Both the position numbers and the translations under genes were made by a program. 51,419 nt of DNA from Chromatiaceae bacterium. GTDB lineage: Bacteria; Pseudomonadota; Gammaproteobacteria; SZUA-140. Within the stretch, counting starts at the first letter, position 1, and every line of letters begins with the position of its first letter. The DNA lies in the NCBI GenBank assembly GCA_003232725.1, contig QIJH01000085.1, positions 1 to 51,419 on the forward strand, in the 5' to 3' direction. Below the pieces are notes generated by a model. It did not search any database. It had not been told where the DNA came from and worked only from the letters and a program-made list of their open reading frames with translations. This document shows, piece by piece, positions 9,131 through 48,020 of the stretch.

Positions 9131-9136
9131 ATTATT

Positions 9137-10930
9137 TTAATCATTAATAGAACCACCCGCTAACAACTGCTCAATCTTTTTAAAACCATGTTTTTTTGCA
9201 GCGCCCAGCGCAGTCTCTCCAGTATTGGAAGAGAGACGCCTATCCGCCCCATTTTTTAATAGAATAGCGGCGATATTTGCATGCCCGCCCCTGGAGGCAT
9301 AGATAAGCGCTGTCATTCCACCAATGGATATATCGCGGTGCGAGCTTGGATCAAGCTGTTCAATTGCATTCACATCCGCATCATGTGCTATCAATTGCTC
9401 AACTATACTCTGATAGCCATTTCGCGAAGCGATCATCAGCGGCGTGCGGCCTATATTATCAAATAGGTTAGGAGCCGCCTGATGGGCTAACAATAACGCC
9501 ACTGCATCAACATGCCCCTGTTCAGCAGCCTTAAATAGCGCAGTGATACCCGCCTCATTCTGAATATCAATATCAGCCCCCGCAGCTAACAGAACCTTCA
9601 TCGTTTCAACATGCCCACCATTCGCTGCGGCTATCAACAGCGAAGGTCTTTTCACTTTTTTATGGATACGTGTGATAAAACGATCTATCTTCTTTTTAAC
9701 CACTGCTCGATTCGTATCGGCACCATGCTTCAGCAATAGCATCATCAGCTCAGCATTCCCATTTCTAGCGGAAATTAATGTCGGCGTCTCTTCTTTTCGG
9801 TTAGCAACCGCAATCTTTGCCCCTTTTTCAATCAAGTAACTTGCAATTTCAACATCGCTCTTCTGAATGGCAACAAGCAAGGCCGTATCACTACGTGAAA
9901 TAGTTCTCAATAACTCCCGCTCTTTGAAAGTAACGCTAGAGCTGGCAATCCGCTGTTCTTTTAAGCCCCAAGGCACGAGGTTAACATTAGCTCCATGCTC
10001 AACTAGCGTACGAACTACCTCAATATTGCCAAAATAGACTGCTGACAATAGCGCAGTCACACCAGTATTGCTATCACGGTAATTAACGTTCGTAGATTGG
10101 TTAAGTAATAGCTGAATCTTCACCTGATCATCAATCTTAGCCGCTTTAATCAAAGACGCTTCACTGGAAAGCGCTGCATAATGAGTTTCATCACGGGCAC
10201 CCGCATTTTTCAGCGTATCGACAATCGTGCCATGATTATTCCACTGCGCAATCGTCAATGCAGTATCACCATTAGCCCGCGTTAAATTAGTATTAGCGCC
10301 ATATTTCAGCAGTGTCACCACAACCTGATTCCAGTCATCTGCTATGCCTTTTACCCCATGTTGAGCCGCAAACATCAGCGGCGTTTTACCGCCACCTTCA
10401 TTAAAAGCACCGTTGGTGACCACATTTGCATCCGCCCCTTTTGACAGCAGCAGTTCTATCATCGGCAGATGTCCATACTGAACGGCTCCCACTAACGCCG
10501 TTTCGCCATCGATCTTTTTCAGGTCAATCTTGCCACCGACCTCTAAAAGCAGATTTACGACGTCAAGATTACCGTACATGGAGGCATTCATCAGCGCAGT
10601 TGAGCCATTATTGCTTTGAGCGTTAACGTTAGCACCTCGTTCAATAAGCAGCTTGAGAATCGACTGCTTGTTTTCAGCTGCTGCAACAATCAGCGCCGTA
10701 TTCCCAAGCTCATCTTTAAGCTCAATATCTGCACCGCCATTAAGCAGATTTACAATCACGTTTTCATGACCGAACCGTGCGGCCAGTACAAAATTGTGGC
10801 CATCTAATGTTGCCTGTCCCGCTCCCTCTTCCGCACTAGCATTCATTGGCGCAATAAAAACAGCAAGTGAGATAGCACTACACAACATAATGGAAGCTAC
10901 CGTAAAGGATGGTTTTGCTAACATTTGCAT
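9137..10930 (-). CDS. Secreted ankyrin-repeat protein (about 15 ANK repeats)
   Basis: The 597-aa ORF has a signal peptide (..APMNASA/EE). The consensus G.T(A/P)L..A...G....V..LL..GA..N recurs across the whole protein. Confidence 0.9.
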   Translation of the reverse strand: MQMLAKPSFTVASIMLCSAISLAVFIAPMNASAEEGAGQATLDGHNFVLAARFGHENVIVNLLNGGADIELKDELGNTALIVAAAENKQSILKLLIERGANVNAQSNNGSTALMNASMYGNLDVVNLLLEVGGKIDLKKIDGETALVGAVQYGHLPMIELLLSKGADANVVTNGAFNEGGGKTPLMFAAQHGVKGIADDWNQVVVTLLKYGANTNLTRANGDTALTIAQWNNHGTIVDTLKNAGARDETHYAALSSEASLIKAAKIDDQVKIQLLLNQSTNVNYRDSNTGVTALLSAVYFGNIEVVRTLVEHGANVNLVPWGLKEQRIASSSVTFKERELLRTISRSDTALLVAIQKSDVEIASYLIEKGAKIAVANRKEETPTLISARNGNAELMMLLLKHGADTNRAVVKKKIDRFITRIHKKVKRPSLLIAAANGGHVETMKVLLAAGADIDIQNEAGITALFKAAEQGHVDAVALLLAHQAAPNLFDNIGRTPLMIASRNGYQSIVEQLIAHDADVNAIEQLDPSSHRDISIGGMTALIYASRGGHANIAAILLKNGADRRLSSNTGETALGAAKKHGFKKIEQLLAGGSIND

Positions 10931-11988: not shown

Positions 11989-12385
11989 TTGCTAACTATC
12001 TATCAAAACCGGGTGATTGATCAGATTGGCAGAGCCTGTGAAGCCCGCCATACCAACTTAAGTGATGATGCTACCCAGGAGATCGTCTGTCTGACGCTCA
12101 ATCAACTACCACCACGCTGAGACCTTTGCACGAGAACTGGTTTTCGTTCCAGCAAGACATAAATGACCGAAAAATCGAAGTTTACACGCAGTAAATAACT
12201 GTTTTAAGATCATTTATAACGCAGCTGGAGCGGAAAATAGACTCGTGCAAAGGTCTCACGCTATATTAGACACACTATCGATACTATCTTTATATATTTC
12301 TGATGAAGAGTACGCTTCAATTTATAATGCGGTTGCAGAGACAGTCAACAATGCAATTGAGAAAGTCTTTAACAACCCGCGTTAA
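11989..12385 (+). pseudogene. ComFB-family gene remnant split by MITE-B
   Basis: The left part reads ..IYQNRVIDQIGRACEARHTNLSDDATQEIVCLTLNQLPPR. The 139-bp MITE follows. The right part reads YIRHTIDTIFIY, then a further frameshift, then SDEEYASIYNAVAETVNNAIEKVFNNPR*. LNQLPPRYIRH is the hallmark ComFB motif. Removing the MITE plus one TSD copy restores CCA CCA CGC TAT ATT AGA CAC exactly. The start codon is uncertain (TTG at 11989?). Confidence 0.6.
12119..12257. mobile_element. MITE-B copy 1 (139 bp, 16-bp TIR, 5-bp TSD)
   Basis: The TIRs are gagacctttgcacgag / ctcgtgcaaaggtctc. The element is flanked by the direct repeat ACGCT (12114..12118 and 12258..12262). It matches 39447..39584 closely along its whole length. 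Confidence 0.85.
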
Positions 12386-28045: not shown

Positions 28046-30082
28046 ATGGCGTTGAAACACTTTTTAAAAGAACAAAACAAGCACACACTTCATATAAGCA
28101 TAGCGTTAGGGATCGTTATACTTTCAAGCTCTGGGCACATCAAAGCAAATGGAGGCGTGTTGTTTACTGATCTTGCCAGTGACAGCGCATCTGGGATTGA
28201 TTTCAGTCGCACAGGAGTACGTAATGACTCCTTCCTGGACGATACTTCTTCGTTTTCCCTTAAACAAGTAATGACTGGTTCGGTAAGGCTACCGCCGATG
28301 TTTACAGACGCCCCTGGAATAGCTCTGTTTGATTACGATAAAGACGGCGATCTGGATGCCTACGTAACCAACTATTCTGGTATAGCCAACAGCCTTTATT
28401 CTAATCAAAAAAATGAAACAGGAAAACTTACATTTCAGGATATGGGTCTGGCTGTCGGGGTAGACGCTACCACTCAGGACAGCACGGGGGTCTGTGCTGG
28501 CGACATAGATAATGACGGTGACGAAGATCTTCTGGTCCTTGGGGGAATTTCTCCAAACCGGTTATATGAAAACAATGCAGGACAAAACTTCATCGAGATT
28601 ACAAACCAAATAACTACCGACAAGGAAGGCGGCATTGCATCAGCCTGCTCCATGGGTGATGTAAATGGTGATGGGCTACTTGATTTTGTGGTCGCCAATT
28701 CGTACAAAATTCTAAGTACTGGGGGCATAGGGCCAGTATACAACACGCTGTTTATCAACCAAGGCAACAATACGTTCAAAGATGTCAGTGCTGCAGCGGG
28801 CATACACAATTATGAAGGAATCACTTGGGCCATTGCCTTGGTCGACTTGGATCTAGATGGAGATATGGACATAGTTGCTGCTGATGACTCCAACGGCTTT
28901 ATTCGCGTCCATAACAATGATGGCAACGGCAATTTCACAGATACTACCTATGACATAGCGACTAACCGGCCGGGATCTTGGATGGGGCTGGCATTTGCCG
29001 ATTTCAACAGCGACGGAAACATGGATATATTCGCCACCAACGTCGGGGACTATTTTGCCCAGGCATTTACCAATCTGCAATCACCTGGGGTTATACTCCC
29101 CCCCGGCATTGGTGCTTCGGGTTGGTTTTTAGGCCAGAACAACGGGACATTTATATTTCCGGGTACTGGTAGCCTTGGTGCTACCCCCTTTGGCTGGGGT
29201 ACGGGCTCAGCGGACTACGACAACGATGGTGACACCGACGTAGTCTATTACGGGGGAATGAACGCAGCCATGTTTGCTGATGCAACTAACCCCGGGGCCA
29301 TTTTGAGCAATGATGGCCATGCAAATTTTAACCGTGACTATATAGCGCTAAGCCAGTCTATCAATCATCAACGCCGCTCTGTACGCGGAGTAGCATTGGG
29401 TGACTTTGATGACAATGGCTTTATCGATATCGCATCAGTCTCCGCAATGGACTGGCCAGAACCTTTTCCATTAGTTCCTATCGTCCCGCTGACAAACGGC
29501 GGACAATTTGATGACGCGGCTCTGATGTGGCCCCAGTTTTCGCCAGTCGATCCAGAGGATCCGAGCCAAGGATACAGCTGGAACAATTACGACCCCATAA
29601 ACGGCGGAATGGCACTAGAGATGAATAGTGGAGGCAATGGCAACGCTTGGGTAAAGTTCGATGTAATGGGCAGTATTGACATCGTACCAGAGGCACAAGT
29701 AAACCGGAACGGGATAGGCGCAGTACTTAGTTTCTCTCCTCTGAGAGGGAAGACAGTAATGCGGCCCATCACGGCTGGATCGAGCCACGGATCCGCACAT
29801 AGCATGACAAGTCTGTTCGGCTTGGGTAAAAGCCACATGGGAAATGTAGAAATCATATGGCCAGGAGGGACAAAAAATAGACTCTATGGCGTAAAGGCTG
29901 GTGAACGACTGTTACTACCTGAAATACCCTGCAGCTATGATGACAGCTCTATAACCGGTTCTGAATATAGAAAATGCACCATAGGCTCACTACGAAAACT
30001 TGTGAAGAATGAGATACTGTCAATTTCGGAAGCTATTAGATTTTTTTTTAGTGCGATTAGAGCACGCAGGGCTACGCTATAA
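28046..30082 (+). CDS. FG-GAP/VCBS-repeat protein with a C-terminal ASPIC/UnbV domain (CRTAC1 family)
   Basis: There are at least seven D-x-D/N-x-DG-x-x-D Ca-binding repeats (DYDKDGDLD, DIDNDGDED, DVNGDGLLD, DLDLDGDMD, DFNSDGNMD, DYDNDGDTD, DFDDNGFID). An UnbV-like segment follows (NRNGIGAVLSF..GSSHGS..LFGLG). A signal peptide is present. Confidence 0.85.
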   Translation: MALKHFLKEQNKHTLHISIALGIVILSSSGHIKANGGVLFTDLASDSASGIDFSRTGVRNDSFLDDTSSFSLKQVMTGSVRLPPMFTDAPGIALFDYDKDGDLDAYVTNYSGIANSLYSNQKNETGKLTFQDMGLAVGVDATTQDSTGVCAGDIDNDGDEDLLVLGGISPNRLYENNAGQNFIEITNQITTDKEGGIASACSMGDVNGDGLLDFVVANSYKILSTGGIGPVYNTLFINQGNNTFKDVSAAAGIHNYEGITWAIALVDLDLDGDMDIVAADDSNGFIRVHNNDGNGNFTDTTYDIATNRPGSWMGLAFADFNSDGNMDIFATNVGDYFAQAFTNLQSPGVILPPGIGASGWFLGQNNGTFIFPGTGSLGATPFGWGTGSADYDNDGDTDVVYYGGMNAAMFADATNPGAILSNDGHANFNRDYIALSQSINHQRRSVRGVALGDFDDNGFIDIASVSAMDWPEPFPLVPIVPLTNGGQFDDAALMWPQFSPVDPEDPSQGYSWNNYDPINGGMALEMNSGGNGNAWVKFDVMGSIDIVPEAQVNRNGIGAVLSFSPLRGKTVMRPITAGSSHGSAHSMTSLFGLGKSHMGNVEIIWPGGTKNRLYGVKAGERLLLPEIPCSYDDSSITGSEYRKCTIGSLRKLVKNEILSISEAIRFFFSAIRARRATL

Positions 30083-37423: not shown

Positions 37424-38284
37424 CTACCGTTCAAACTGATATAACAGACCGAAAAAAAACGTGGTCTGGAAATCACGCTCGACGATGGGACTGCGGGTAA
37501 TCTCATCGCTTAACCATTCGTGTTTAAATGATGCACTGCCACGCCACTGATTGCCAAAGTCATAGCTGAAATTAAGCCCCAAATTCATGTTAAGCGCAGA
37601 ATCGCCCAGATAGGCGGGGCGCCCTAACGTCGCTTCACCGGCACGAACACCATAATAATAATCCACTAACTCATGGTTTTTCATAGACACACCTACCACC
37701 CCACCTATACTGGCACGATTGCTAAGTTCAAACACATGGTCAGCCCCCAATTGAATTTCATAACCGTTGTGAGTATTGGTTATGTCCATAGCAGCGGACA
37801 TAAAAAGCGCGGCAAAACGAAACTCCAAACCTAACTCAAAAGCGCCATCACGCCCCTCCATGCCTGCAAGCAGAGGGCTGTTAGAATCTTCGTCAAACCC
37901 TTCAAAACGATAGTTTACCGTACCGGCCAGGAAGAATGGCAACGTTTTACCTCGCAGGAGTTTATAGTTGAGATACGGCCCCATCCATATAATATTCTCA
38001 CCGATATAACCCACTATCGGATATATTGGTGAAACCGTATCAGCATCTCCTATAAATGGATTTGGACCCTCTACCGCAGCAAAACCGGCAACCCAACCCG
38101 GCGGGGCACGCTCACTGAATCCTAATGGCGCAGTGCTTGCCATTAAGGGAGGAATTGCGAACAAGAGCCCCCCCCCGATACAGCACTGATAGTACCTAAT
38201 CCCGAAGCCTTTCCATCTTGTTTGCAAGAGGGAAAGGAATTGATGCATAAGCTTTGCACACATGGAAACCCAGGTCATAGACAT
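37424..38284 (-). CDS. MipA/OmpV family outer-membrane protein
   Basis: The ORF shows a beta-barrel alternation pattern and a C-terminus ..FFFGLLYQFER ending in an aromatic residue plus x. It resembles the second paralog at 47006..47842. Confidence 0.75.
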   Translation of the reverse strand: MSMTWVSMCAKLMHQFLSLLQTRWKGFGIRYYQCCIGGGLLFAIPPLMASTAPLGFSERAPPGWVAGFAAVEGPNPFIGDADTVSPIYPIVGYIGENIIWMGPYLNYKLLRGKTLPFFLAGTVNYRFEGFDEDSNSPLLAGMEGRDGAFELGLEFRFAALFMSAAMDITNTHNGYEIQLGADHVFELSNRASIGGVVGVSMKNHELVDYYYGVRAGEATLGRPAYLGDSALNMNLGLNFSYDFGNQWRGSASFKHEWLSDEITRSPIVERDFQTTFFFGLLYQFER

Positions 38285-38362: not shown

Positions 38363-38938
38363 TCAGTGTCGCGCTGAAGTGTCGTATTTATGACGCGCCG
38401 CAATAGCACTAGCCACCAACCTGTTACGAAACTGGCGATCGATTACCCCCTTCTCCAATGATTTCAGCGTATCAGCTACACAAACACCCGTACTGTCGTG
38501 ACCGGTCGCCGCAATACCGCTAAAAGACGTCACATCAACAAACCGTAGCTGACCTGTTTCGCTAAGTTGATTTGCATACAGAGCATTGGATGCCTGCGGG
38601 GCCGCTGAACCAAAGCGCTCTAGATTACCGTTGTTAACATAGACATCCAAATCCCCATCATTATCAAAATCCAACACAGCAACTCCGGGAGTGCTAAACA
38701 TTGGCGGCAAACGCACAGGCACTGCTCTGACCACTGATTCGGAAAAAATATCAAAAGCATTCAACAGGGTATCGTTCCTTAAACCCGCGTAACGGAAGTT
38801 GAGTCCGTTTTCCGGCATCTTAGCGATATCGGTATAGCTTATCACCGCTGGCGATTTCGGCGAGGCGTGGGCGTGCAATACAGATACCATTGGAAAAAAG
38901 ATATTAATGCAACACAACCCCAGCTGGCGGGGAACCAT
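38363..38938 (-). pseudogene. Internally deleted paralog of the CRTAC1/FG-GAP protein
   Basis: Residues 40-150 align with the N-terminus of ORF 28046..30082 (VRLPPMF, DGDLDVYVNN, LYANQLSETGQLRF, DSTGVCVAD). After one FG-GAP repeat the ORF jumps to a tail resembling that protein's last 35 aa (SLEKGV..SAIAARH vs SLRKLV..SAIRARR). Confidence 0.6.
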
Positions 38939-39446
38939 AACAATACGTTGCCACTTGCTTCTCTATCTTACCACTTATTGATGCTCAACATTACGCTTCC
39001 TGGCCCATTAGTTCATTGATTTCTTCTTCCTTAAAGGTCATTACACCTTATTGGCACCCAGCTATTTGTGCGTTATTAAGTTAATTATTAGGCGTGCTAT
39101 CCCAATTTTGGCCTCTTTCCTAGCCACAAACAATCTAGGTAATTATATCTCTCATAACCAAGTTGAGTCACTGTACGACTGGCCACATTTTAATACGCAA
39201 TTTGCGAGCCCATATGTATACCCAAAGCGATTTGGATTCAGGGCAAATAGCACGGCCGATTTCTCCCCTGACTGCGTTAGAATTCCTCTCAATAGAACGA
39301 CTATTCATCGTCATTCTGCCTTGCCATGGAAAAAATATTCCGCATTCTTTACACCTAAGTCCAAGTCGCTTTGGGTATATACATCGCTATCATTAAATTT
39401 GTAGAATGGCTATTGCATTTGAACCGAAGGTTTTATATTACATAAT

Positions 39447-39584
39447 GAGATCTTTGCACGAGAACTCGTTTTCGTTCCAGCAAGACATCAATGGTCGAAA
39501 AAATGGAATTTACACCAAGTAAATGAGTATTTGAGATCATTTATAACGCAGTTGGAACGGAAAATAGACTCGTGCAAAGGTCTC
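39447..39584. mobile_element. MITE-B copy 2 (138 bp, 5-bp TSD)
   Basis: The TIRs are gagatctttgcacgag / ctcgtgcaaaggtctc. The element is flanked by the direct repeat ATAAT (39442..39446 and 39585..39589). It ends 16 nt before the GNAT start codon, just upstream of its AAGGAG Shine-Dalgarno sequence. Confidence 0.85.
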
Positions 39585-39600
39585 ATAATAAGGAGATTAC

Positions 39601-40044
39601 ATGGACATTTTGCCGTATAACAGCAATCGAGATCTTGATCTTTATATCGCGGGAGAACTGCAATCCATCAAAAATTCAAAGCCCAACATAATAATACCTG
39701 ACTATATCATAGAAGGGATCAAGCAAAATTATCAGACCATGATAAACAGCGACGCTTTATCGGGCTTTACCGCCGTAGACAATCAACCATTCGGGTTCAT
39801 CGTTGTTTCCAGGGAAGAGGGCATAGACCAATCCTACGGCCTGATCAGGAACCTATATATCAGGCCAGAAAATAGAGGCGCACGGGCATGGAAAGCACTT
39901 GTACAGCGTGTTGAAACTCACTTCAAAGACCTGGGGTTGAATAGAATTGGCTTAGAAATATATAAGTCCAATGAATCAGTATGCAACCTAGCCCGCCTTT
40001 CCGGATATTCCATGGAGCGCTACTATATGGAAAAGGCTATTTGA
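39601..40044 (+). CDS. GNAT family N-acetyltransferase
   Basis: The 147-aa ORF has an acetyl-CoA motif A region (LYIRPENRGARAWKALVQRVE). A strong AAGGAG Shine-Dalgarno sequence precedes it. Confidence 0.8.
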   Translation: MDILPYNSNRDLDLYIAGELQSIKNSKPNIIIPDYIIEGIKQNYQTMINSDALSGFTAVDNQPFGFIVVSREEGIDQSYGLIRNLYIRPENRGARAWKALVQRVETHFKDLGLNRIGLEIYKSNESVCNLARLSGYSMERYYMEKAI

Positions 40045-40063
40045 CATTTATACAATATTTTAT

Positions 40064-42259
40064 TTATAAGGCTAAAGTAGAGGCCTGCTCTGGATGAAGC
40101 GCCTGCTCAGCCTTTCCACTAAGGCTAATAGCGAAGGCATAACTGATAGACATATTTTTCAACTGTGAAAAACGACCTGCTGGCCCGCTATGGCCTGAGT
40201 TCATATCTGTGCTTAGCAGCACCACACTGTGGTTAGTCTGACAGTGCCTCAACCGAGCAACCCATTTCGCCGCCTCCCAGTAACCTACCCGGCTATCGGT
40301 AAGGCCACACAGGGCAAGCACATGGGGATAGTCCTGCTCCTCAAGATTATCATAAGGTGAATACATGGCAATTTGATTATAGATGGCGGGATCTATCAAT
40401 GGATTTCCCAGCTCGGCCCAATCAGATGGTGTCAACGGCAGGTCTTTATCTAGCAACGAATTTAATACATCCACAAAAGGAACCCCGGCAATAATTGCAT
40501 TAAATAATCCTGGAGCAATATTGGCAGCAGCAGCTACCAAGGTACCACCCGCACTAACACCATGAGCGGTAATATTACCTCTAGAGGTGTACTTGTGTTT
40601 CACTAGATACTCTGCCGAAGCGATAAAATCAGAAAAACTGTTCATTTTATTATTCAACTTTCCTTCACTATACCAGTGACATCCCAACTCACGGCCACCA
40701 CGTACATGGGCAATAACATAAACAAACCCTCTATCGACCAAGCTAAAAAGTTCCGGTGAAAAAACCGGCACAACGCTATAACCATACGCACCATAGCCAT
40801 GCAAAAAAGTGGGGGCCGATCCGTCTAACAATGTCTCACTATGATAAAGCAATGAAAGAGGTATGCGTCTACCATCAGGCGTCGTGGCAAACAAACGCCG
40901 GGAAACATAGTTCTCAGCTCTATATTCCGCATAGACTTTCTGTTTCTTAATAAGCCGACAGCTGCAGTTACTAAGATCGTATTCAAGCAAACACCCAGGC
41001 GTACGCAGAGAACTGTAATACATCATTAGATTATCGGTATCATATTCGTAACCACCGACAATATCTAAATCATAGGCTTCATCCTCCATACCCGCCACAG
41101 GCAGTTCGTACTCATGGCTGTCATCAAGATTATAGATAATAATTCGTTTCAGACCACTGCGGGATTCAACCCGAGCATGATAATGCTTCAATGCCACATG
41201 TTTTAATATGTGACACCCTGGCCGATGAGGAACCATGGATTCCCAATAGGCACTACCCGGCTTGGTAACTGGAGCAATGACAATACGAAAATCCCCGGCA
41301 TCCCCAGCATTTGTGAGAATCATAAAATAACCCGGGCCAGGATGAGCGCTGTGTTCAATTTTATACTGAATCCCCGTACAACGTGGCTCTACAATAAATG
41401 ATTCAGCTTGGCAGTTAGAAAGATCAATCAGATGCAATTCATTGGCCCCATGAGCATAAGCACTGATAACTGCATAATAACCACTCTGCGTGCTCTGGAG
41501 TCCTACATAATAGGCCGGATCGTTCTCTTGATAAATCAAACGATCATCTTGCTGATCTTCACCTAACGTATGCGCATAAACTTTGGATGGTCTATCGTAT
41601 TCATCTCTGGCAACATAATAAATTACGTGACTATTCCGACTCCATACAACCTTTCCTGACGTATTATGGAGAATATCGGGCAGATCCTCCCTATGTTCCA
41701 TATCCCTAAATGATACAGAGAAACTCTCCGAACCACTACTATCCCAAGACCAGGCGAAATACCGATGATTAGGGCTATGCTGCCGGCAGGCAATCACAAT
41801 TCGTCGTCCCACCCTAGACAAAGCTGCATCGTCTAATATAATCTCCTCTGCCTGACTACCATCACGTGGGCGGCGGCAATAATATGGATAATCTAAGGTG
41901 GAGAGATAACGCTCATAATAAAGATAAGGGCCATCGGGAATTTCGATGCCAGTTTGATCGTGAAGCATTCGCGCATTGAATTCACCATTGAGGGTTTCGA
42001 TAAGAGGATCTATAGGCTGCAATACCTCACGGGTATAACTATTCTCTGTTTCCAGGTGACCCGCAATGTGAGGAGCCAAACAATCAGGGGATGACAATAT
42101 GCTGCGCCAGTTAGGATCTCGCATCCAGCTATAAGGATCAGTTCTTTTTTTTCCATGAATAGTATGTTCCTCTATCACACTTTCAGCGACAGGGGCCGGC
42201 ATTTCCAATACACGTGTCATTAAAGGACTAATACAGGTATTTAATTGTTTAAATAACAT
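40064..42259 (-). CDS. ptrB: S9A serine peptidase, oligopeptidase B (protease II)-like
   Basis: The ORF has an N-terminal beta-propeller and a C-terminal catalytic domain. The nucleophile is GVSAGG, followed by ..VPFVDV..SPYDN..GLTDSRVGYWEAAKWVARLR..TDMNSGHSG... It is colinear with E. coli PtrB (GGSAGG, MDSGHGG). It lies 23 nt downstream of the ABC gene on the same strand. Confidence 0.88.
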   Translation of the reverse strand: MLFKQLNTCISPLMTRVLEMPAPVAESVIEEHTIHGKKRTDPYSWMRDPNWRSILSSPDCLAPHIAGHLETENSYTREVLQPIDPLIETLNGEFNARMLHDQTGIEIPDGPYLYYERYLSTLDYPYYCRRPRDGSQAEEIILDDAALSRVGRRIVIACRQHSPNHRYFAWSWDSSGSESFSVSFRDMEHREDLPDILHNTSGKVVWSRNSHVIYYVARDEYDRPSKVYAHTLGEDQQDDRLIYQENDPAYYVGLQSTQSGYYAVISAYAHGANELHLIDLSNCQAESFIVEPRCTGIQYKIEHSAHPGPGYFMILTNAGDAGDFRIVIAPVTKPGSAYWESMVPHRPGCHILKHVALKHYHARVESRSGLKRIIIYNLDDSHEYELPVAGMEDEAYDLDIVGGYEYDTDNLMMYYSSLRTPGCLLEYDLSNCSCRLIKKQKVYAEYRAENYVSRRLFATTPDGRRIPLSLLYHSETLLDGSAPTFLHGYGAYGYSVVPVFSPELFSLVDRGFVYVIAHVRGGRELGCHWYSEGKLNNKMNSFSDFIASAEYLVKHKYTSRGNITAHGVSAGGTLVAAAANIAPGLFNAIIAGVPFVDVLNSLLDKDLPLTPSDWAELGNPLIDPAIYNQIAMYSPYDNLEEQDYPHVLALCGLTDSRVGYWEAAKWVARLRHCQTNHSVVLLSTDMNSGHSGPAGRFSQLKNMSISYAFAISLSGKAEQALHPEQASTLAL

Positions 42260-42282
42260 GCCTCAACACCTAATCCACAAAA

Positions 42283-43689
42283 TCATAGTTTGTGCCTAAC
42301 TTCAACGACCATTTTCCCACTCATTACTAGCTCATCAAGTTTTCGCGATACACTTATGACCTTATTACTATCAAGGTTCGCATCCCATTCATCTAGCAAA
42401 AATATATCAATGCCTTTTTGCTTAGAAATTTCATCGATAATTTGGATAACTTGCTCACCTGTGGAGCCATCTTTCTGGTTTAGAAAGAACAGATTATGCA
42501 TTGCCGGCAAATAAAAGCTCCTTTCCCCAAAATATTCTTTCATAGAAAGCAATAGACTGGTCTTGCCCGTACCATTATCTGCCTGTATGGTTACCCGCCC
42601 TTTTTCAGAAAGAGATTTACACCATTGATCGGTACTTTGCGACGCATTGATAGAGGGTGCACCGGCAACCGTAATTTCTTGAAATTTTATACGCTTATCC
42701 AGATCATCCATTTTGGTCTCATTGAAAAACTGGTCTACCAAAACGAGAGTACCTTTAACAAAGTTATACTGGGCGATGATAGTCATCATTGCCGTCATAG
42801 AATTTATCACTTGAACAATTTTCGGTAGAGCCACCAGCAAAACAATAAACGACTCACTAGCAACTCCATAATACTGAATCAGGAAAATAACAATTAAAAT
42901 AGTGGGGATAAATGCAGCAAACGAAAGAACTAGCTGAACAGCACACCTTGCTGTGGTTGACCTAACTTTAGCGGTGCGATAGTGCTTGAAAAAATTAACT
43001 TTATTGCTTCCCCAGGCATCTTTATTTAGTGTGTTTCCGATAACCAAATTATCCCAGACTGAGGAAAGGGCACCAGTCAAAGTAAGCAGTTTTCTCTCCG
43101 AAGTATAGGCCGTGACTTTCAAAAGTTTTCCGTATTTGAATATTATCAATGCGCATAAAACCACACTAATAAGATAAGAAACAATTATAAGCTCATCAAC
43201 CACAAATGCCATTATCAATATAGTTGTCACGGACATCAACATTGCGGAGAGAAGCTGATAGATGTACTCAGGATAGCTAGCCACAATCATTGGCCCAACC
43301 TTACTGTACATACTCGTCATTTTTTCTTTCTTTCTACCATCTGGGAACATAGCAACTTTACTGGACAAAACCGCCTGCCCTTCGATCGTAAATTGTTCTA
43401 TAGATTTTATCTTCCACTTTTCGAGAAAAATAGAGCTATACATTCCAAAAACATGGCCGCCGAGTATAAGCAAAAAATAGCTATACAAATTTGATATGAA
43501 AAAAGATCCGCTACTGACTGAACGTGCGAGCTCGGCAAGAAAATAGATTGATGAAGCCGTTAGGAAATATTGAATGAAAATAAGAAATATTGTAATAGTT
43601 CTCTCACTACATCGAAAGATTCGTTGTCTAATCAGTGGATCAGTCATAATCAACCTAAAATATAAACTAAAGAGGGCATCTGCACTCAC
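42283..43689 (-). CDS. Fused permease-ATPase ABC exporter with an unusually compact NBD
   Basis: About 330 aa with about six TM helices are followed by about 130 aa carrying Walker A-like DNGTGKTS, a signature-like STGEQ, Walker B IFLLDEWD and a terminal His (VRHKL). There is no N-terminal C39 peptidase domain. The start may be the internal MTDPLI... Confidence 0.75.
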   Translation of the reverse strand: MSADALFSLYFRLIMTDPLIRQRIFRCSERTITIFLIFIQYFLTASSIYFLAELARSVSSGSFFISNLYSYFLLILGGHVFGMYSSIFLEKWKIKSIEQFTIEGQAVLSSKVAMFPDGRKKEKMTSMYSKVGPMIVASYPEYIYQLLSAMLMSVTTILIMAFVVDELIIVSYLISVVLCALIIFKYGKLLKVTAYTSERKLLTLTGALSSVWDNLVIGNTLNKDAWGSNKVNFFKHYRTAKVRSTTARCAVQLVLSFAAFIPTILIVIFLIQYYGVASESFIVLLVALPKIVQVINSMTAMMTIIAQYNFVKGTLVLVDQFFNETKMDDLDKRIKFQEITVAGAPSINASQSTDQWCKSLSEKGRVTIQADNGTGKTSLLLSMKEYFGERSFYLPAMHNLFFLNQKDGSTGEQVIQIIDEISKQKGIDIFLLDEWDANLDSNKVISVSRKLDELVMSGKMVVEVRHKL

Positions 43690-43767
43690 TGCGCACAGAC
43701 ACCCCCGCTTCCGACCTACCTAAACCAGGCATTAAACCCTAGTTTTCGGTAAAAAAGGATTTAGGAT

Positions 43768-43947
43768 TTAGAATCTAAAAGTCCAAGTCCATTTGCCACT
43801 CTGTTCTTCACTGTGCATACCACCTGCAGCATTGGCAGCCAGTTCACGGCCTGCCTTAGCTATAGATTGGTCTTGGTTTTCAGTGTAAGCAACAAATTTT
43901 TCAGCGACATCAGCCAAGTTAGCACAAGAAATTTCAGTAGTCTTCAT
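43768..43947 (-). CDS. RiPP precursor peptide candidate (59 aa), C-terminal core ..GG-MHSEEQSGK-WTWTFRF
   Basis: I translated this by hand: MKTTEISCANLADVAEKFVAYTENQDQSIAKAGRELAANAAGGMHSEEQSGKWTWTFRF*. An AGGAGG Shine-Dalgarno sequence lies 7 nt upstream of the ATG. The ORF sits between the radical SAM gene (70-nt gap) and the ABC gene (78-nt gap) on the same strand. It is absent from the ORF track only because it is under 60 aa. Confidence 0.8.
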   Translation of the reverse strand: MKTTEISCANLADVAEKFVAYTENQDQSIAKAGRELAANAAGGMHSEEQSGKWTWTFRF

Positions 43948-44017
43948 AATATTTCCTCCTAAGGAAAAGTTAACAAATATACTTCATGGTAAAGTTAAAA
44001 AACCATCCACTATCATC

Positions 44018-45433
44018 TCAAGACACCCCAACCTGTGGCTTTTCTTCACGACTCCGTGAAGAGCTGTACTGCTGGGGAAAACCTAATTTTCCGTCGATGT
44101 GCTTCAACAAGGATGACAAACCACAACACGACCCTTGGTAATCTTTCGAAAACCTTTTGTTTAACAGCTGGTCGTGAATACAACCCCCTTTGCAGACTGA
44201 GAAATACTCACAGCACCCCATTTTATCAGGCACCTTTTTCATCTCTCTGCGAAAATCACTAAGATTCTTTGATTCACTTAATATATCGCCCAGGTGGGAC
44301 TCCATAACATTGCCAAAAATATAGCTAGGATGGCCTATGTATTTATCGCAAGCGCCGATATCTCCGTTTGCCTCCAAGGTGACATACTTACCCATGCAGT
44401 CACCTTCAAACAGGCAGTTAAGATCATTTTGCTGGCCTTTCAGACGATCAATCAAGTTCTGCATTCCGGTGACCTTGAATTTATCTCTATGCGGCCACCA
44501 CTCATCACACACCTCAATCAAAAATTCGACAAACTCTGGATAAGGAAGATATTTCCCAATAACCTTAGTAGAGCCTATATTATTTTCAGGAAGCACATTC
44601 AGCAGGTCTATGCCGTGCAACCCCGACTCCAGCATATATTCAACCAACCGTTTTGCACCGAGATTTTTGACTTCTTTATCAACAACCACCAACGCACCAG
44701 TCTTTATGCCGGCATCACCCAATTTTTTTATCCCCGCTAAAACTCTTTCGGAAGTAGCTTTCCCCTCTACATCAACTCTACGCGTGTCATTGATTTCAGG
44801 CGGGCCATCCAGACTAACGCCGACACCAATTTTGTACGCCTTAATAAACTCAACCCACTCATCAGACAAATCAACGGCATTAGTCTGTATGCCATTTTCA
44901 ACCTGCTGCCCCACAGATCTGAAGTGTTCTTGCATCCACATCATTTTTATAAAAAACTTTGGATTTAAAAGTGTAACCTCTCCCCCATGCCATACAATAT
45001 GAATTTTTTTTGCATTTGGTAAGGAAATAATTTCCTTCATCGCCCTTGCCAATATTTTAAAAGACATAACCTGGTTAGGCCCCTCGGCCCACGAACGGCA
45101 GTATGTACAACGCAGATTACATAACCTAGTCGCTTTAACAATAACAATAAGAGAACTAGACAGGGCCTTGGCGGACGAAGTGGGCTCTTGACAGACAGCC
45201 TCAAAGATTACCTTCTCTCTAGGGCTTAAAATACTATCTACTGGCATCACCCCAAGTTGTTTTATCACATCCGTTTCACCTTCGCTAATCTTCAGCAAAG
45301 CAGAAAACTTAATTTTTTCATCTTCAGATAGTGACTCTTTGAAGTCACCAATAACTTTCTCCCAACGTGAAGGATATTTTCCTGAAGCAATTTCTTTAAT
45401 AGGGATTTTTTTAAGCAAAGAGTCATTATCCAT
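44018..45433 (-). CDS. Radical SAM enzyme with a SPASM-type C-terminal auxiliary-cluster domain (RiPP maturase candidate)
   Basis: The ORF has CNLRCTYC (CX3CX2C) at about residue 106 and the GGE motif WHGGEVTL. The C-terminal Cys clusters are NCLFEGDC..GACDKY, CCEYFSVCKGGCIHD and SCCG. An N-terminal extension of about 100 aa precedes the SAM cluster. Confidence 0.88.
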   Translation of the reverse strand: MDNDSLLKKIPIKEIASGKYPSRWEKVIGDFKESLSEDEKIKFSALLKISEGETDVIKQLGVMPVDSILSPREKVIFEAVCQEPTSSAKALSSSLIVIVKATRLCNLRCTYCRSWAEGPNQVMSFKILARAMKEIISLPNAKKIHIVWHGGEVTLLNPKFFIKMMWMQEHFRSVGQQVENGIQTNAVDLSDEWVEFIKAYKIGVGVSLDGPPEINDTRRVDVEGKATSERVLAGIKKLGDAGIKTGALVVVDKEVKNLGAKRLVEYMLESGLHGIDLLNVLPENNIGSTKVIGKYLPYPEFVEFLIEVCDEWWPHRDKFKVTGMQNLIDRLKGQQNDLNCLFEGDCMGKYVTLEANGDIGACDKYIGHPSYIFGNVMESHLGDILSESKNLSDFRREMKKVPDKMGCCEYFSVCKGGCIHDQLLNKRFSKDYQGSCCGLSSLLKHIDGKLGFPQQYSSSRSREEKPQVGVS

Positions 45434-46397
45434 AATGAATATCCTATTTATCGTCCCTTACTGTCAATAATGCCGTTGTTGATTTAGCTAGGAATTCTAG
45501 AGCCTAACTTCTCTTTGTTCAACTGTCCTTTCGTACAGAAATTAATATTTTCTATATGTAAGAAAGCCCCATCTATATGACAAACATACAGACACAAAAA
45601 ACAAACACATTTTTTAAAGAAAATTTTTTAATAGATATTGAATATCATTCAAATATAAGACTACTCACACAGTAACAAATTTTTATCAGTGCCTGGCAAT
45701 ACTATTGTTTGGCGAGCGGCACAAAAAAACACGCCGACAATACTTCGTTTTGTCAGTAAATTTAAAAATAATCACACCGCGTTATAATGATCGTGTCTTC
45801 TTTTCCAATGAGAAAGGCATCATTCGTAAGCTCAACAAATCCCATCTAACAATCACATAGTAATATCGCTATCATTTTGATTTCAACATCATCAAGGCGG
45901 GTTACATAACTTCGAATTAAAAAAAATAGTTCTGGCAACAGCACATTCATGAGTAAAATAAAAACAAACTTCCACAAAGAAATCATTGCTAACAATATAA
46001 TATCTTCTTTGCCAATGTTGGTTGTTAGCGAATGCGTTTGAATCGCTTGGACAATTCTGTGACGAAGCCAATACCAAAGCTGGTACCAGTTTTAACGCGC
46101 ACTACGATGGTGATACAGATGACGCTATCGATGAGCATACTCAGCGATTTTCAAGGGAGTTGTCGCCTAAAATTTAAATTTATGCGGCCTTGTTCTCTTT
46201 GCTTTCTGAGTTAACTTTCTCCGGGATTAGATGAATGTTGGTTATTCGGTTCCAGTCTCTGGTTTAACCCGACCAACAGCTGGGATTTTTTGGTTTTTCA
46301 TGTTCATCAACACGTTTCCGTTTGGCCACCCCAGCGATGAGCAAAAACGAGTCGTGCCAACTACACCTCCTGGGCCATATCCATAACAGTTACCGAA

Positions 46398-46805: not shown

Positions 46806-46956
46806 GTAACTATTCAGCGAGTAGTCAAAATTAATAGTGGCTGCTCAGCTAACCCATGAAATCTGCCAGTTCAAGGCGAAAAATGTGAGTTTACACGTGT
46901 AAATGATCACTTTTTAACGCTGAACGGGTGGAGTTCATGGGTTAGCTGAGTAGTTA
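46806..46956. mobile_element. MITE-A copy 2 (151 bp, 8-bp TSD)
   Basis: The TIRs are gtaactattcagc / gctgagtagttac. The element is flanked by the direct repeat ACAACATC (46798..46805 and 46957..46964). It has the same orientation and core as 8971..9130. Confidence 0.8.
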
Positions 46957-47005: not shown

Positions 47006-47842
47006 ATGACTTATAAACACCTTATCGCTGCAACACTATTACTCGCTACCATAGCGCCGAGTGCCTATGGTCAGCAACTGCCACGCTGGGAGCTAGGCAT
47101 AGGGGTTGGTGGATTAAACCTGCCAGATTATCGAGGTTCAGATATCTATCGTAATTATGTGATCCCATACCCATACATCACCTATCGCAGTGAACATCTC
47201 AACATTGACCGAGGCGGTATTCAGGGACATCTATTTAAAACAGACAAGGTGAAACTTGATCTTAGTTTAGCAGCGGGTATTCCCGTCTCAAGCGGCAGAG
47301 GCGGCCCACGTGCAGGGATGCCAGACCTCGACCTAACCGTTGAACTAGGCCCCTCACTTGAATTCAATCTGTGGCAACCGAACCACAAGCGTCAATCACT
47401 ATCGCTTAAGTTACCCCTACGCTCCGCACACTCTATCGGTGGAGATGGACTCTTCAAACATCGTGGCTGGACTTTTTCTCCCTTTCTTGAATACACCGCT
47501 AAAAGCCTCAAACCTGATGACTGGAAAACAAGCATCTCAATAGGCCCACTCTATGCTGACCGCGATTACCACAACTATTTTTATGAAGTTCGGTCAGCGT
47601 ATGTCACAGCTGCCCGCAGTGAATATAATGCAAGCGGTGGCTACAGTGGTGCGCGTACCACGTTAACAATTAGAAAACATCTCACCGACAAACTCCAACT
47701 CGGTGCATTCGCGCGCCTTGATACCCTTAAAAACAGTGCATTTGAAGAGAGCCCACTGGTCTCAACAAAACAGTACCGAGCATTAGGCATCACACTGATC
47801 TGGATGCTATCTCAATCCGATGAGATGGTTCACGTCCCATAA
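47006..47842 (+). CDS. MipA/OmpV family outer-membrane protein (second paralog)
   Basis: The ORF has a signal peptide (..APSAYG/QQ), the segment WELGIGVGGLNLPDYRGSD typical of MipA family N-termini, and beta-strand periodicity. Confidence 0.75.
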   Translation: MTYKHLIAATLLLATIAPSAYGQQLPRWELGIGVGGLNLPDYRGSDIYRNYVIPYPYITYRSEHLNIDRGGIQGHLFKTDKVKLDLSLAAGIPVSSGRGGPRAGMPDLDLTVELGPSLEFNLWQPNHKRQSLSLKLPLRSAHSIGGDGLFKHRGWTFSPFLEYTAKSLKPDDWKTSISIGPLYADRDYHNYFYEVRSAYVTAARSEYNASGGYSGARTTLTIRKHLTDKLQLGAFARLDTLKNSAFEESPLVSTKQYRALGITLIWMLSQSDEMVHVP

Positions 47843-47930
47843 GGTGAAGCGCTAGTTCATTGTAGACTCCGGCCTAAACGGCACTTATCAGCGTACGGTG
47901 AATAATGCCGTACGGAAATCCAACATACAT

Positions 47931-48020
47931 AAAGACGTGCGCACGACACAGATCTATACACATGTAATTCAACGCGGTGGTAATGCCGTGATTAGTCCGC
48001 TAGGCAGCGTGCTATCATAA
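47931..48020 (+). pseudogene. 3'-terminal remnant of a tyrosine recombinase (integron-integrase-like C-terminus)
   Basis: The frame reads [29 protein letters not shown]. This matches the catalytic-Tyr end of IntI/Xer-type integrases (..TTMIYTHVL.RGG.GV.SPLD). Upstream sequence loses similarity and is closed by a stop at 47853. Confidence 0.55.

What the first reader, a model, noticed from the sequence alone, without database searches (positions are those of the whole stretch)
40064..45433. Candidate new radical-SAM RiPP operon: rSAM/SPASM -> hidden 59-aa precursor -> ABC exporter -> oligopeptidase B
Four same-strand genes are separated by short gaps of 70, 78 and 23 nt.
- A 471-aa radical SAM enzyme carries CNLRCTYC, a GGE motif and a Cys-rich SPASM-type C-terminus.
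- A 59-aa ORF with a strong AGGAGG Shine-Dalgarno sequence was missed by the 60-aa ORF track.
- A 468-aa fused TMD-NBD ABC transporter follows.
- A 731-aa S9 peptidase ends the block.

No sulfatase, PQQ, mycofactocin or other known SPASM client gene is nearby, so the small peptide is the obvious substrate. The peptide ends in WTWTFRF. This has the same spacing as the darobactin core, which lies at the C-terminus of DarA (darobactin A is W-N-W-S-K-S-F) and is crosslinked by the rSAM/SPASM enzyme DarE. The published dar operon also encodes ABC-type export components. Two things differ here. The gene order differs from darABCDE, with the rSAM gene first and a dedicated peptidase last. Position 5 is Phe instead of Lys/Arg, so the product would differ from every darobactin or dynobactin core I know. 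By eye the block is more AT-rich than guaBA or the RND genes. It also sits among MITEs, an IS remnant and an integrase remnant, which suggests horizontal acquisition.
Basis: partly seen in the sequence, partly recalled or inferred. Interest (0 to 1): 0.93.

Follow-up and report, generated by a model that had tools for sequence, protein, structure and literature searches.

The report
Darobactin-family RiPP cluster, new branch
This is a real gene cluster for a small ribosomal peptide, cross-linked by a radical-SAM enzyme, from the family of the antibiotic darobactin; it is a new branch with a new core (WTWTFRF) and its own peptidase and acetyltransferase, not a new kind of system.

Summary
In detail: four minus-strand genes lie at the stated coordinates with gaps of 70, 78 and 23 nt.

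The radical SAM/SPASM enzyme scores best against NCBIfam DarW (520 bits) and DarE (431). Both are below the 650 cut-off, and both are far above the sulfatase-maturase model (198).

Its only close relative (74% identity) is on metagenome contig L001. That contig also has a downstream 60-aa ORF with a diverged leader but an identical GKWTWTFRF.

The ABC-like gene is not shared.

The core contains WTFRF, the published photorhaptin core, which gets a Trp-O-Phe ether. Engineered darobactin K5F forms a fused diether.

Best reading:
- It is a daropeptide cluster.
- The maturase probably installs W1-O-W3 and W3-O-F5 ethers.
- The peptidase probably cuts after Lys(-1).
- The GNAT probably acetylates the new N-terminus.

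Novelty is a new variant of a known kind. The chemistry is inferred, not shown.

The parts
44018..45433 (-). Radical SAM/SPASM peptide maturase (471 aa). It forms a new clade of the DarE/DarW (daropeptide maturase) family.
   Evidence: Pfam Radical_SAM and SPASM. NCBIfam DarW 520 bits and DarE 431 bits (cut-off 650 each), anSME 198. True DarW proteins score 740-800 and true DarE proteins 742-769. Only one relative is above 46% identity (P0002, 74%). NJ tree: window+P0002 bootstrap 100, inside DarE+DarW (72). Cys105/109/112 and eight C-terminal Cys are invariant across 11 homologues.
43768..43947 (-). Precursor peptide gene (59 aa). Leader = residues 1-52, ending in Lys52. Core = WTWTFRF (codons 43791..43771), directly followed by the stop codon. 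AGGAGG Shine-Dalgarno at 43960..43955.
   Evidence: Sequence. The L001 orthologue is 60 aa with the same frame and length and no indels. It differs at 28 nonsynonymous and 11 synonymous codons, yet GKWTWTFRF is invariant with 3 synonymous changes. 0 of 300 shuffles give such an ORF.
43672..43706 (-). GC-rich 14-bp stem-loop with a U-rich tail just 3' of the precursor gene. It looks like a terminator or attenuator. It overlaps the GTG at 43689.
   Evidence: Terminator-like hit. RNA fold -41 kcal/mol, z = -4.2, 0 of 200 shuffles as stable. L001 has strong hairpins at the same place (z = -3.6) and shares the motif GGGGGTGTCTG.
42283..43689 (-). ABC-exporter-like membrane protein with a reduced (~125 aa) ATPase domain. 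Probable true start is ATG 43647 (454 aa). It is a candidate exporter but is not conserved in the sister locus.
   Evidence: About 6 hydrophobic segments. Walker A ADNGTGKT (370), STGE (409), Walker B IFLLDE (429), His465. Only weak ABC/AAA/SMC_N hits. Exhaustive HMMER: 614 representatives, all ~440-470 aa end to end, best 30% identity, database gene aa. Family members weakly match ABC exporter TMD and ABC_tran. No PDB sequence relative. Absent from L001.
40064..42259 (-). S9 serine peptidase of the oligopeptidase B subfamily (731 aa). Candidate leader peptidase cutting after Lys52.
   Evidence: Pfam S9_N 237 bits and S9 186 bits. Best PDB matches are oligopeptidase B at ~410 bits, against 190 or less for prolyl oligopeptidases. 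GxSxGG, the Asp and the SGH motifs align. Asp sits at the P1-defining Glu576 position (role of Glu576 from PMC3778648). 61% identical orthologue in L001, and another in L205.
39601..40044 (+). GNAT-family acetyltransferase (147 aa), convergent with the S9 gene and 20 nt from it. Candidate N-terminal acetyltransferase of the processed core.
   Evidence: Pfam Acetyltransf_1. The GNAT-> <-S9 pair is conserved as a unit in L001 (54% identity) and L205. Precedent: the cluster IV daropeptide BGC encodes an N-acetyltransferase, and aphotorhaptins are N-acylated by a GNAT after leader removal.
45494..45522 (-). Promoter-like site (TTGAAC-17-TAGAAT) about 60 nt upstream of the maturase start, inside a 35% GC region with no long ORF.
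   Evidence: Consensus scan only: 26 sites found against 20 expected, so this is weak. GC profile.
39442..39589 (.). MITE-like palindromic element at the GNAT-side edge of the block.
   Evidence: Inverted repeat I4. Second copy at 12118-12258, 87% over 141 nt.
46841..46953 (.). MITE-like palindromic element on the other side of the block, beyond a HIT-family gene.
   Evidence: Inverted repeat I1. Second copy at 8995-9131, 84% over 137 nt.

Best explanation
This is a daropeptide-class RiPP biosynthetic cluster, the family of darobactin and photorhaptin.

Shown by sequence and comparison:
- A DarE/DarW-family radical SAM/SPASM maturase is followed by a translated-looking 59-aa precursor whose last seven residues are WTWTFRF.
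- An oligopeptidase-B-type S9 peptidase and a GNAT acetyltransferase travel with these two genes in another genomic context.

Inferred mechanism, with my probability for each step given that the class call is right:
1. The maturase binds the leader. Using 5'-deoxyadenosyl radical chemistry it cross-links the aromatic-X-aromatic motifs of the core. The most likely product has two fused ethers, Trp1(C7)-O-Cbeta(Trp3) and Trp3(C7)-O-Cbeta(Phe5), a shift of +27.96 Da (about 0.5).
2. The S9 peptidase removes the leader by cutting after Lys52, the residue just before the core in both loci (about 0.5).
3. The GNAT acetylates the freed N-terminus of Trp1 (about 0.4).
4. The ABC-like protein exports the product or protects the cell (about 0.35).

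A terminator-like stem-loop after the precursor gene suggests that maturase and precursor form the main transcript, with read-through into the downstream genes.

The biological target is unknown. BamA inhibition and host signalling are both open.
For: Family placement:
- NCBIfam best hits are DarW at 3e-156 and DarE at 3e-129, against anSME at 2e-58.
- The tree places the enzyme inside DarE+DarW, with bootstrap 100 separation from the anSME-like outgroups.
- No other rSAM client gene was found among the ORFs annotated across the window.

Small ORF is real:
- Strong SD.
- Conserved position, frame and length in L001, with an invariant GKWTWTFRF despite a fast-diverging leader and 3 synonymous core changes.
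- 0 of 300 shuffles produce such an ORF.

Same layout in related branches (maturase, then a precursor with an aromatic C-terminus):
- Myxococcus DarW: ...WTWTWPF.
- R. sullae: ...WSFNIWNYRF.
- L003 and L004.

Chemistry precedents:
- DarEpa puts a Trp-O-Phe ether on C-terminal WTFRF (PMC9055067).
- Darobactin K5F (W-x-W-x-F) gives an NMR-proven fused diether (PMC10705402).

Four-gene unit:
- Only maturase, precursor, GNAT and S9 are shared between the window and L001. The flanks are unrelated.

Peptidase and GNAT roles:
- The peptidase is OpdB-type, with the catalytic motifs aligned and an acidic residue at the P1 site.
- OPB cleaves after Lys/Arg (PMC3778648), and Lys precedes the core in both precursors.
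- GNAT precedent in daropeptides after leader removal.

Stem-loop after the precursor in both loci.
Against: - There is no expression or mass-spectrometry evidence. Every chemical step is by analogy.
- The enzyme is below the curated cut-offs of both DarE and DarW. It is only 38-46% identical to any characterised or named relative, and 38% to PasB. Substrate-controlled rules learned on DarE and PasB may not transfer.
- PasB-like enzymes can make C-C cross-links on other cores (PMC12912966).
- The leader shows no detectable similarity to DarA or DarApa. No NCBIfam precursor model matches.
- The linkage of S9 and GNAT rests on two informative loci. The third, L205, is a short contig that breaks at an IS-like remnant.
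- In L001 the GNAT/S9 pair is inverted relative to the maturase, so S9 is not co-transcribed there.
- The P1-pocket residue equivalent to 578 is Ala here and Ile in L001, not acidic.
- The ABC-like gene is absent from L001, and a terminator-like stem separates it from the precursor.
- Homology of this GNAT to PasC could not be tested.
Confidence: 0.8

Rival explanations
1. Monocyclic, photorhaptin-like product. The maturase makes only the Trp3-O-Phe5 ether on the embedded WTFRF. The preceding W-T is left uncross-linked or is trimmed away with the leader, giving (acetyl-)WTFRF or a monocyclic heptapeptide.
For: WTFRF at the C-terminus is exactly the cluster IV core, for which one ether was demonstrated. 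That cluster also has a GNAT and lacks DarBCD. DarE homologues acting on non-native substrates often stop at one ether.
Against: Both W-T-W-T and the preceding G-K are invariant between loci whose leaders differ at about half of the positions, which argues that the first Trp is part of the functional core. DarW-type cores are also W-T-W-T-W-x-F. K5F darobactin goes to the diether. The maturase is only 38% identical to PasB.
Confidence: 0.2
2. A carbon-carbon (cyclophane/triceptide-type) or mixed cross-linking pattern instead of ethers, because this maturase is a separate clade whose chemistry is not predictable from DarE.
For: A PasB-like enzyme (MicB) makes three C-C links. The cyclophane maturases AmcB, YhhB and XyeB are detectable relatives. 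The window enzyme fails both DarE and DarW cut-offs.
Against: In all tested daropeptide maturases, aromatic-X-aromatic motifs gave ethers, and C-C links formed when the third residue was non-aromatic. All three-residue motifs here are aromatic-X-aromatic. The cyclophane models score far lower (137 bits or less) than DarW and DarE.
Confidence: 0.1
3. Only maturase and precursor form the pathway. The S9 peptidase, GNAT and ABC-like genes are neighbours with unrelated housekeeping roles, and host proteases release the product, as proposed for darobactin.
For: Darobactin and photorhaptin were released by E. coli lysate without a dedicated protease. The GNAT/S9 pair has a different orientation relative to the maturase in L001. 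L205 shows the pair with a different upstream sequence. The ABC-like gene is not conserved.
Against: The pair is the only other thing shared by two contigs with unrelated flanks. The basic residue at -1 matches OPB specificity. There is a GNAT precedent in this RiPP class. No other close GNAT relatives were found in the 5.8-billion-protein index.
Confidence: 0.25
4. Not a RiPP system. The rSAM is an anaerobic sulfatase maturase or another protein/cofactor maturase, and the 59-aa ORF is spurious.
For: anSME is the closest solved structure, and TIGR03942 gives 198 bits.
Against: The TIGR03942 score is well below its cut-off of 349, and far below the DarW and DarE scores. No sulfatase was found among the ORFs annotated across the window. 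The tree separates this enzyme from anSME-like sequences with bootstrap 100. The small ORF is conserved with an invariant core.
Confidence: 0.02

Closest known systems
Photorhaptin / aphotorhaptin cluster (pas; 'cluster IV' daropeptides of Photorhabdus asymbiotica; Guo 2022, Ma 2023, Ma 2026)
   Same: - The C-terminal core contains the identical WTFRF, with no follower peptide.
- A GNAT acetyltransferase is in the cluster.
- There is no DarBCD transporter.
- The product is released by cleavage immediately before the core.
   Different: - The core is extended by W-T, giving W-x-W-x-F, so a second, fused ring is possible.
- The maturase is only 38% identical to PasB. PasB passes the DarE model (676 bits) while this enzyme does not (431).
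- The leaders are unrelated. DarApa is N/D/K/R-rich and has Gln at -1. This leader has Lys at -1.
- A dedicated OpdB-type peptidase and an ABC-like gene are present here.
DarW-type maturase systems (NCBIfam NF041300; e.g. Myxococcus faecalis, precursor ending WTWTWPF)
   Same: - This is the best-scoring family model.
- The gene order is the same: maturase, then precursor.
- The core sits at the extreme C-terminus with the pattern W-T-W-T-aromatic-x-F.
   Different: - 520 bits, against 740-800 for true members, and about 45% identity.
- Positions 5 and 6 are F-R here, not W-P.
- The Myxococcus locus has no S9 peptidase or GNAT.
- No held paper pairs the name DarW with darobactin.
Darobactin (darABCDE)
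   Same: - Homologous rSAM/SPASM maturase (40-44% identity).
- Heptapeptide core W-x-W-x-x-x-F.
- The first ring is expected to be the same Trp-O-Trp ether.
- Gammaproteobacterial host.
   Different: - Position 5 is Phe, not Lys/Arg, so an ether is expected where darobactin has the Trp-Lys C-C bond. Engineered K5F does this.
- No MacB-type permease, membrane fusion protein or ATPase (DarBCD).
- The precursor is downstream of the maturase.
- The leader is not detectably similar.
Rhizobium sullae 'type III' daropeptide (two discrete ethers; Ma 2023)
   Same: - Maturase-then-precursor order.
- Ether-only chemistry on aromatic-X-aromatic motifs.
- C-terminal ...RF.
   Different: - The rings there are discrete (WSF ... 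WNY). Here the motifs overlap (W-T-W-T-F), so the rings would be fused.
- That locus keeps DarBCD-like genes.
- The enzymes are 43% identical and fall in different clades.

Membership tests
Daropeptide RiPP class (DarE-like maturase plus aromatic-X-aromatic core) | Radical SAM/SPASM maturase homologous to DarE | tested here: met
   DarW 3e-156 and DarE 3e-129 are the top two NCBIfam models. The enzyme is inside the DarE+DarW clade in the NJ tree. The rSAM and SPASM cysteines are conserved.
Daropeptide RiPP class (DarE-like maturase plus aromatic-X-aromatic core) | Adjacent small precursor with an aromatic-X-aromatic motif at its C-terminus | tested here: met
   The 59-aa ORF ends WTWTFRF, 70 nt downstream of the maturase. 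It is conserved in L001.
Daropeptide RiPP class (DarE-like maturase plus aromatic-X-aromatic core) | Aryl-O-Cbeta ether cross-link in the product | not testable with these tools
   Needs co-expression and HRMS/NMR. The only precedents are on related substrates.
DarE equivalog / darobactin operon | NF038005 score of at least 650 bits | tested here: not met
   431.5 bits. True DarE proteins score 742-769, and PasB scores 676.
DarE equivalog / darobactin operon | Core W-N/S-W-S/T-K/R-x-F with Lys/Arg at position 5 | tested here: not met
   Position 5 is Phe in both the window and L001.
DarE equivalog / darobactin operon | darBCD transporter genes (MacB-type permease, membrane fusion protein, ATPase) with darA upstream | tested here: not met
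   None of these lies in the block. Compare the canonical operon in L002.
DarW (NCBIfam NF041300) | Score of at least 650 bits | tested here: not met
   520.3 bits for the window enzyme and 532.6 for P0002. True members score 740-800. DarE proteins score 512-524 on this model, so the window enzyme is as far from DarW as DarE is.
Photorhaptin/aphotorhaptin (cluster IV, pas) | C-terminal WT(F/Y)RF core | tested here: met
   The last five residues are WTFRF. The published core is from PMC9055067.
Photorhaptin/aphotorhaptin (cluster IV, pas) | Maturase orthologous to PasB/DarEpa | tested here: not met
   38% identity over 396 residues to the published DarEpa sequence. The NCBIfam profiles differ.
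Photorhaptin/aphotorhaptin (cluster IV, pas) | Cluster-encoded GNAT homologous to PasC | tested here: inconclusive
   A GNAT is present and conserved with the cluster.
Anaerobic sulfatase maturase | TIGR03942 score of at least 349 bits and a sulfatase client nearby | tested here: not met
   198 bits. No sulfatase was found among the ORFs annotated across the 51-kb window.
Oligopeptidase B (S9A) | Closest to OpdB rather than prolyl oligopeptidase, with the catalytic Ser-Asp-His present | tested here: met
   410 bits to OpdB structures, against 190 or less to POPs. GVSAGG, GLTDSRV and SGHSG align with the Serratia OpB motifs.
Oligopeptidase B (S9A) | Equivalog score (NF007511, at least 1313 bits) and the Glu576/Glu578 P1 pair | tested here: not met
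   424 bits. The Glu576 position is Asp. The 578 position is Ala here and Ile in L001. So it is a divergent OpdB-like enzyme, and a preference for basic P1 residues is plausible but unproven.
ABC exporter | Pfam ABC_tran / ABC_membrane above the gathering score | tested here: not met
   There are only sub-threshold SMC_N and AAA hits and no PDB sequence hit. Walker A, Walker B, a signature-like STGE and an H-loop His are present. Relatives weakly match ABC exporters.

The most novel reading that the evidence does not exclude
The cluster makes a natural fused bis-ether bicyclic heptapeptide (WTWTFRF). That scaffold is so far known only from engineered darobactin K5F. The product would be matured by a dedicated oligopeptidase-B-type leader peptidase and capped by a GNAT. 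This would be the first daropeptide pathway with its own leader protease. The product would act on the Omp85/BamA machinery, and the POTRA-less Omp85-family barrel encoded right after the precursor in sister locus L001 would serve as immunity or decoy.
Probability: 0.2. Interest if true: 0.8.

Novelty: new variant of a known kind. Interest (0 to 1): 0.55.

Why it matters
Darobactin-type peptides are among the few new scaffolds active against Gram-negative bacteria, so new natural cores and maturases are useful starting points.

This locus offers three things:
- A maturase clade with no close characterised relative.
- A core predicted to give the fused diether ring system, which has been seen only in an engineered variant.
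- A candidate answer to an open point in this family: which protease removes the leader.

The reported WTFRF-type product appears to act on nematode development, not as an antibiotic. The locus is therefore also a test case for how core extension changes the function of these peptides.

Tried and rejected
- Word-indexed protein search with the precursor found only itself. Small ORFs are poorly represented there.
It did not find the source genome or the pas locus. L002 turned out to be the canonical darBCDE operon.
None encodes the maturase, S9 or GNAT. Most are a recurrent out-of-frame match in gut contigs. Absence claims are therefore weak.
- The exact look-up of the maturase found no public record. 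Clusters at 90% identity for GuaA, S9, GNAT and other window proteins hold no named members, so the host could not be named. GuaB similarity suggests a gammaproteobacterium. The organisms of the top PDB entries are from memory.
- By eye the leader looked similar to the DarA leader. BLASTP gives no alignment at E <= 100, so I rejected this.
- No NCBIfam precursor model matches.
- Ma 2023 (JACS), Miller 2022 and Ma 2026 (PNAS) are not held. I could not check their precursor lists for WTWTFRF or obtain PasC. The string WTWTFRF occurs in no held paper.
- S9 as a macrocyclase like POPB, PCY1 or OphP: rejected. The core ends at the stop codon, so there is no follower to serve as a leaving group. The enzyme is also OpdB-like, not POP-like.
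- Pfam gave no hit for the supposed integrase remnant.

Full report
**1. Observation**

| Gene | Coordinates | Length |
|---|---|---|
| Radical SAM enzyme | 45433..44018 | 471 aa |
| Small ORF | 43947..43768 | 59 aa |
| ABC-like ORF | 43689..42283 | 468 aa |
| S9 peptidase | 42259..40064 | 731 aa |

- The gaps are 70, 78 and 23 nt.
- The first protein has Pfam Radical_SAM and SPASM domains. The last has both S9 domains.
- The small ORF has AGGAGG 7 nt upstream of its ATG and ends GKWTWTFRF-stop.
- An ORF of 30-120 aa ending W.W.[FWY].[FWY] occurs once in the window and never in 300 shuffles.
- The block is 42% GC, against 44.9% for the window and 52% for guaBA.
- It is bracketed by two palindromic MITE-like elements that have second copies elsewhere in the window.

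**2. What the enzyme is**

NCBIfam scores:

| Model | Bits | Cut-off |
|---|---|---|
| DarW (NF041300) | 520 | 650 |
| DarE (NF038005) | 431 | 650 |
| Anaerobic sulfatase maturase | 198 | 349 |
| DynA | 177 | 450 |

- Calibration: true DarW proteins score 740-800 on DarW. True DarE proteins score 742-769 on DarE and about 515-525 on DarW.
- The window enzyme is therefore as far from DarW as DarE is. It belongs to neither family.
- Among 5.8 billion proteins only one is close: P0002, at 74% identity. Everything else is at 46% or below.
- In a neighbour-joining tree the window enzyme and P0002 form a long branch of their own (bootstrap 100). That branch sits inside the DarE+DarW clade (72). It is apart from the Rhizobium sullae type and from sulfatase-maturase-like outgroups (100).
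- The three radical-SAM cysteines and eight C-terminal cysteines are invariant across homologues.
- No sulfatase, PQQ, mycofactocin or quinohemoprotein gene was found among the ORFs annotated across the window.

**3. The small ORF is a conserved precursor**

- P0002 lies on a 14-kb metagenome contig, L001. There it is followed by a 60-aa ORF ending GKWTWTFRFR.
- Codon by codon, the two small ORFs have no indels. They show 20 identical, 11 synonymous and 28 nonsynonymous codons. The nine residues GKWTWTFRF are invariant despite three synonymous changes.
- A fast-evolving leader with a frozen core is the usual signature of a RiPP precursor.
- Both loci have a very stable RNA structure just after the precursor gene (z = -4.2 and -3.6; 0 of 200 shuffles as stable). 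They share the motif GGGGGTGTCTG.
- In the window this structure is a 14-bp stem with a U-rich tail. It overlaps the GTG at 43689.

**4. Which genes belong together**

- The only genes shared by the window and L001 are the maturase (72-74% identity), the precursor (53%), the S9 peptidase (61%) and a GNAT acetyltransferase (54%). In the window the GNAT lies at 39601-40044, convergent with S9.
- The flanks are unrelated. L001 has mfd and a non-orthologous RND gene. The window has guaBA, a HIT gene and MipA genes.
- The GNAT-> <-S9 pair is a fixed unit. It recurs in a third lineage, L205, a short contig that breaks at an IS-like remnant.
- In L001 the maturase operon reads into the GNAT. In the window it reads into S9. 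The pair is therefore inverted relative to the maturase.
- The ABC-like gene has no counterpart in L001. At that position L001 has a divergent POTRA-less Omp85-family barrel and a 284-aa protein.

**5. The accessory proteins**

S9 peptidase:
- It is of the oligopeptidase B type, at 410 bits to OpdB structures against 190 or less for prolyl oligopeptidases.
- The Ser, Asp and His motifs align.
- OPB cuts after Lys/Arg, and Glu576 sets P1 (PMC3778648).
- Both orthologues here have Asp at that position and a non-acidic residue at position 578.
- Both precursors have Lys immediately before the core.

ABC-like protein:
- It fails Pfam ABC_tran and has no PDB sequence relative.
- An exhaustive HMMER search finds 614 representatives of about 440-470 aa aligning end to end. 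The best is only 30% identical, and the database gene call starts at Met15.
- It has about six hydrophobic segments, Walker A, a signature-like STGE, Walker B and an H-loop His within about 125 residues.
- Relatives weakly match ABC exporter domains.
- It is a member of an uncharacterised exporter-like family with a reduced ATPase domain. It is not a truncated gene.

**6. Comparison with what is known**

- Guo et al. 2022 (PMC9055067) named the daropeptides. They described a Photorhabdus 'cluster IV' whose precursors end WT(F/Y)RF. Its BGC lacks DarBCD and encodes an N-acetyltransferase. Its enzyme, DarEpa, installs one Trp-O-Phe ether.
- A review divides daropeptides into darobactins, photorhaptin-type (one ether) and 'orphan' multi-ether types (PMC10849128).
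- Woodard et al. showed that darobactin K5F gives an NMR-proven fused diether. They also noted natural cores with an aromatic position 5, such as WNWSFRF (PMC10705402).
- A 2026 paper cites 'aphotorhaptins' as N-acylated by a GNAT after leader removal (PMC13647313).
- The R. sullae and Myxococcus (DarW) loci have the same maturase-then-precursor order. Their cores are WSFNIWNYRF and WTWTWPF.
- So the kind, the gene order, a Phe at position 5 and a cluster GNAT all have precedents.
- I compared the published DarApa and DarEpa sequences (Supplementary Table 2) directly. The maturases are 38% identical. PasB passes the DarE model (676 bits). The leaders are unrelated. This locus is not a close relative of pas despite the shared WTFRF.
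- The string WTWTFRF is in no held paper. As a real precursor core I found it only in the window and L001.

**7. Mechanism**

Shown:
- Family membership of the maturase at class level.
- A conserved precursor.
- A conserved four-gene set.

Inferred:
- The maturase cross-links W1-W3 and W3-F5 as fused ethers (+27.96 Da).
- F5-R-F7 probably stays open, because DarE did not make an ether from a preceding Phe to a following Trp.
- The OpdB-like peptidase cuts after Lys52.
- The GNAT acetylates Trp1.
- The ABC-like protein exports the product or protects the cell.

Rivals:
- A monocyclic photorhaptin-like product.
- C-C links.
- S9 and GNAT as bystanders.

**8. Verdict**

- This is a genuine daropeptide cluster. 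It represents a new maturase clade, a new core and a new accessory set, so it is a new variant of a known kind.
It overstated the novelty, left out the GNAT and over-weighted the ABC gene.
- Function is open, whether antibiotic or signalling.
- The host looks like a host-associated gammaproteobacterium with no close sequenced relative.

Noticed in passing
L001:7581-8882 (+): In the sister locus, the gene right after the precursor is a divergent, POTRA-less Omp85/BamA-family barrel with a signal-peptide-like N-terminus. NCBIfam Omp85_fam gives E = 3e-11 and BamA gives E = 1e-4; Pfam gives nothing. Darobactins target BamA, so it could be an immunity decoy or an export pore. The window has no counterpart.
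   Followed up: partly
window 42283-43689 (-): The ABC-like protein belongs to a sizeable uncharacterised family: 614 representatives at 50% clustering, all ~450 aa. The family has an exporter-type membrane domain fused to a ~125-aa mini ATPase that lacks the usual helical subdomain. It has no Pfam or NCBIfam family and no solved relative.
   Followed up: partly
window 9137-10930 (-) and 5818-6192 (+): A 597-aa protein made almost entirely of ankyrin repeats, and a Sel1-repeat protein. These are eukaryote-like repeat proteins typical of host-associated or intracellular bacteria.
   Followed up: no
window 1030-2854 (-): uvrC appears split into two ORFs: the GIY-YIG part at 2390-2854 and the rest at 1030-2289. 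This may be a frameshift, a pseudogene or a sequencing error. The uvrC-pgsA-tRNA(Gly, Cys, Leu) order resembles that of E. coli (from memory).
   Followed up: partly
window 38363-38938 (-) vs 28046-30082 (+): The 191-aa ORF beside the block carries a single FG-GAP repeat. It looks like a truncated copy of the 678-aa FG-GAP/ASPIC protein 9 kb away, which would be a sign of local rearrangement. The paralogy itself was not tested.
   Followed up: no
window 37424-38284 (-) and 47006-47842 (+): Two MipA/OmpV-family outer-membrane protein genes lie on either side of the cluster region.
   Followed up: no
window 39212-39384, 39442-39589, 46841-46953; copies at 12118-12258 and 8995-9131: Several palindromic MITE-like elements lie around the block. 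Two of them have second copies elsewhere in the window, at 84-87% identity.
   Followed up: partly
window 47898-48020 (+): A 40-aa ORF containing RTTQIYTHV, which by eye resembles the C-terminus of a tyrosine recombinase. Pfam gave no hit, so the 'integrase remnant' is unconfirmed.
   Followed up: partly
L205:21-152 (-): An IS5-like transposase N-terminal fragment (identified by eye) sits just upstream of the GNAT/S9 pair in the third lineage. Homology to L001 stops there and the contig ends nearby.
   Followed up: no
L087-L201 (many gut metagenome contigs): The DNA pattern that encodes WTWTFRF recurs in about 40 human-gut contigs, inside a 48-codon frame ending ...KRRWTWTFRFRSCGS. This is probably an out-of-frame reading of a conserved gene and is unrelated to this system.
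   Followed up: no
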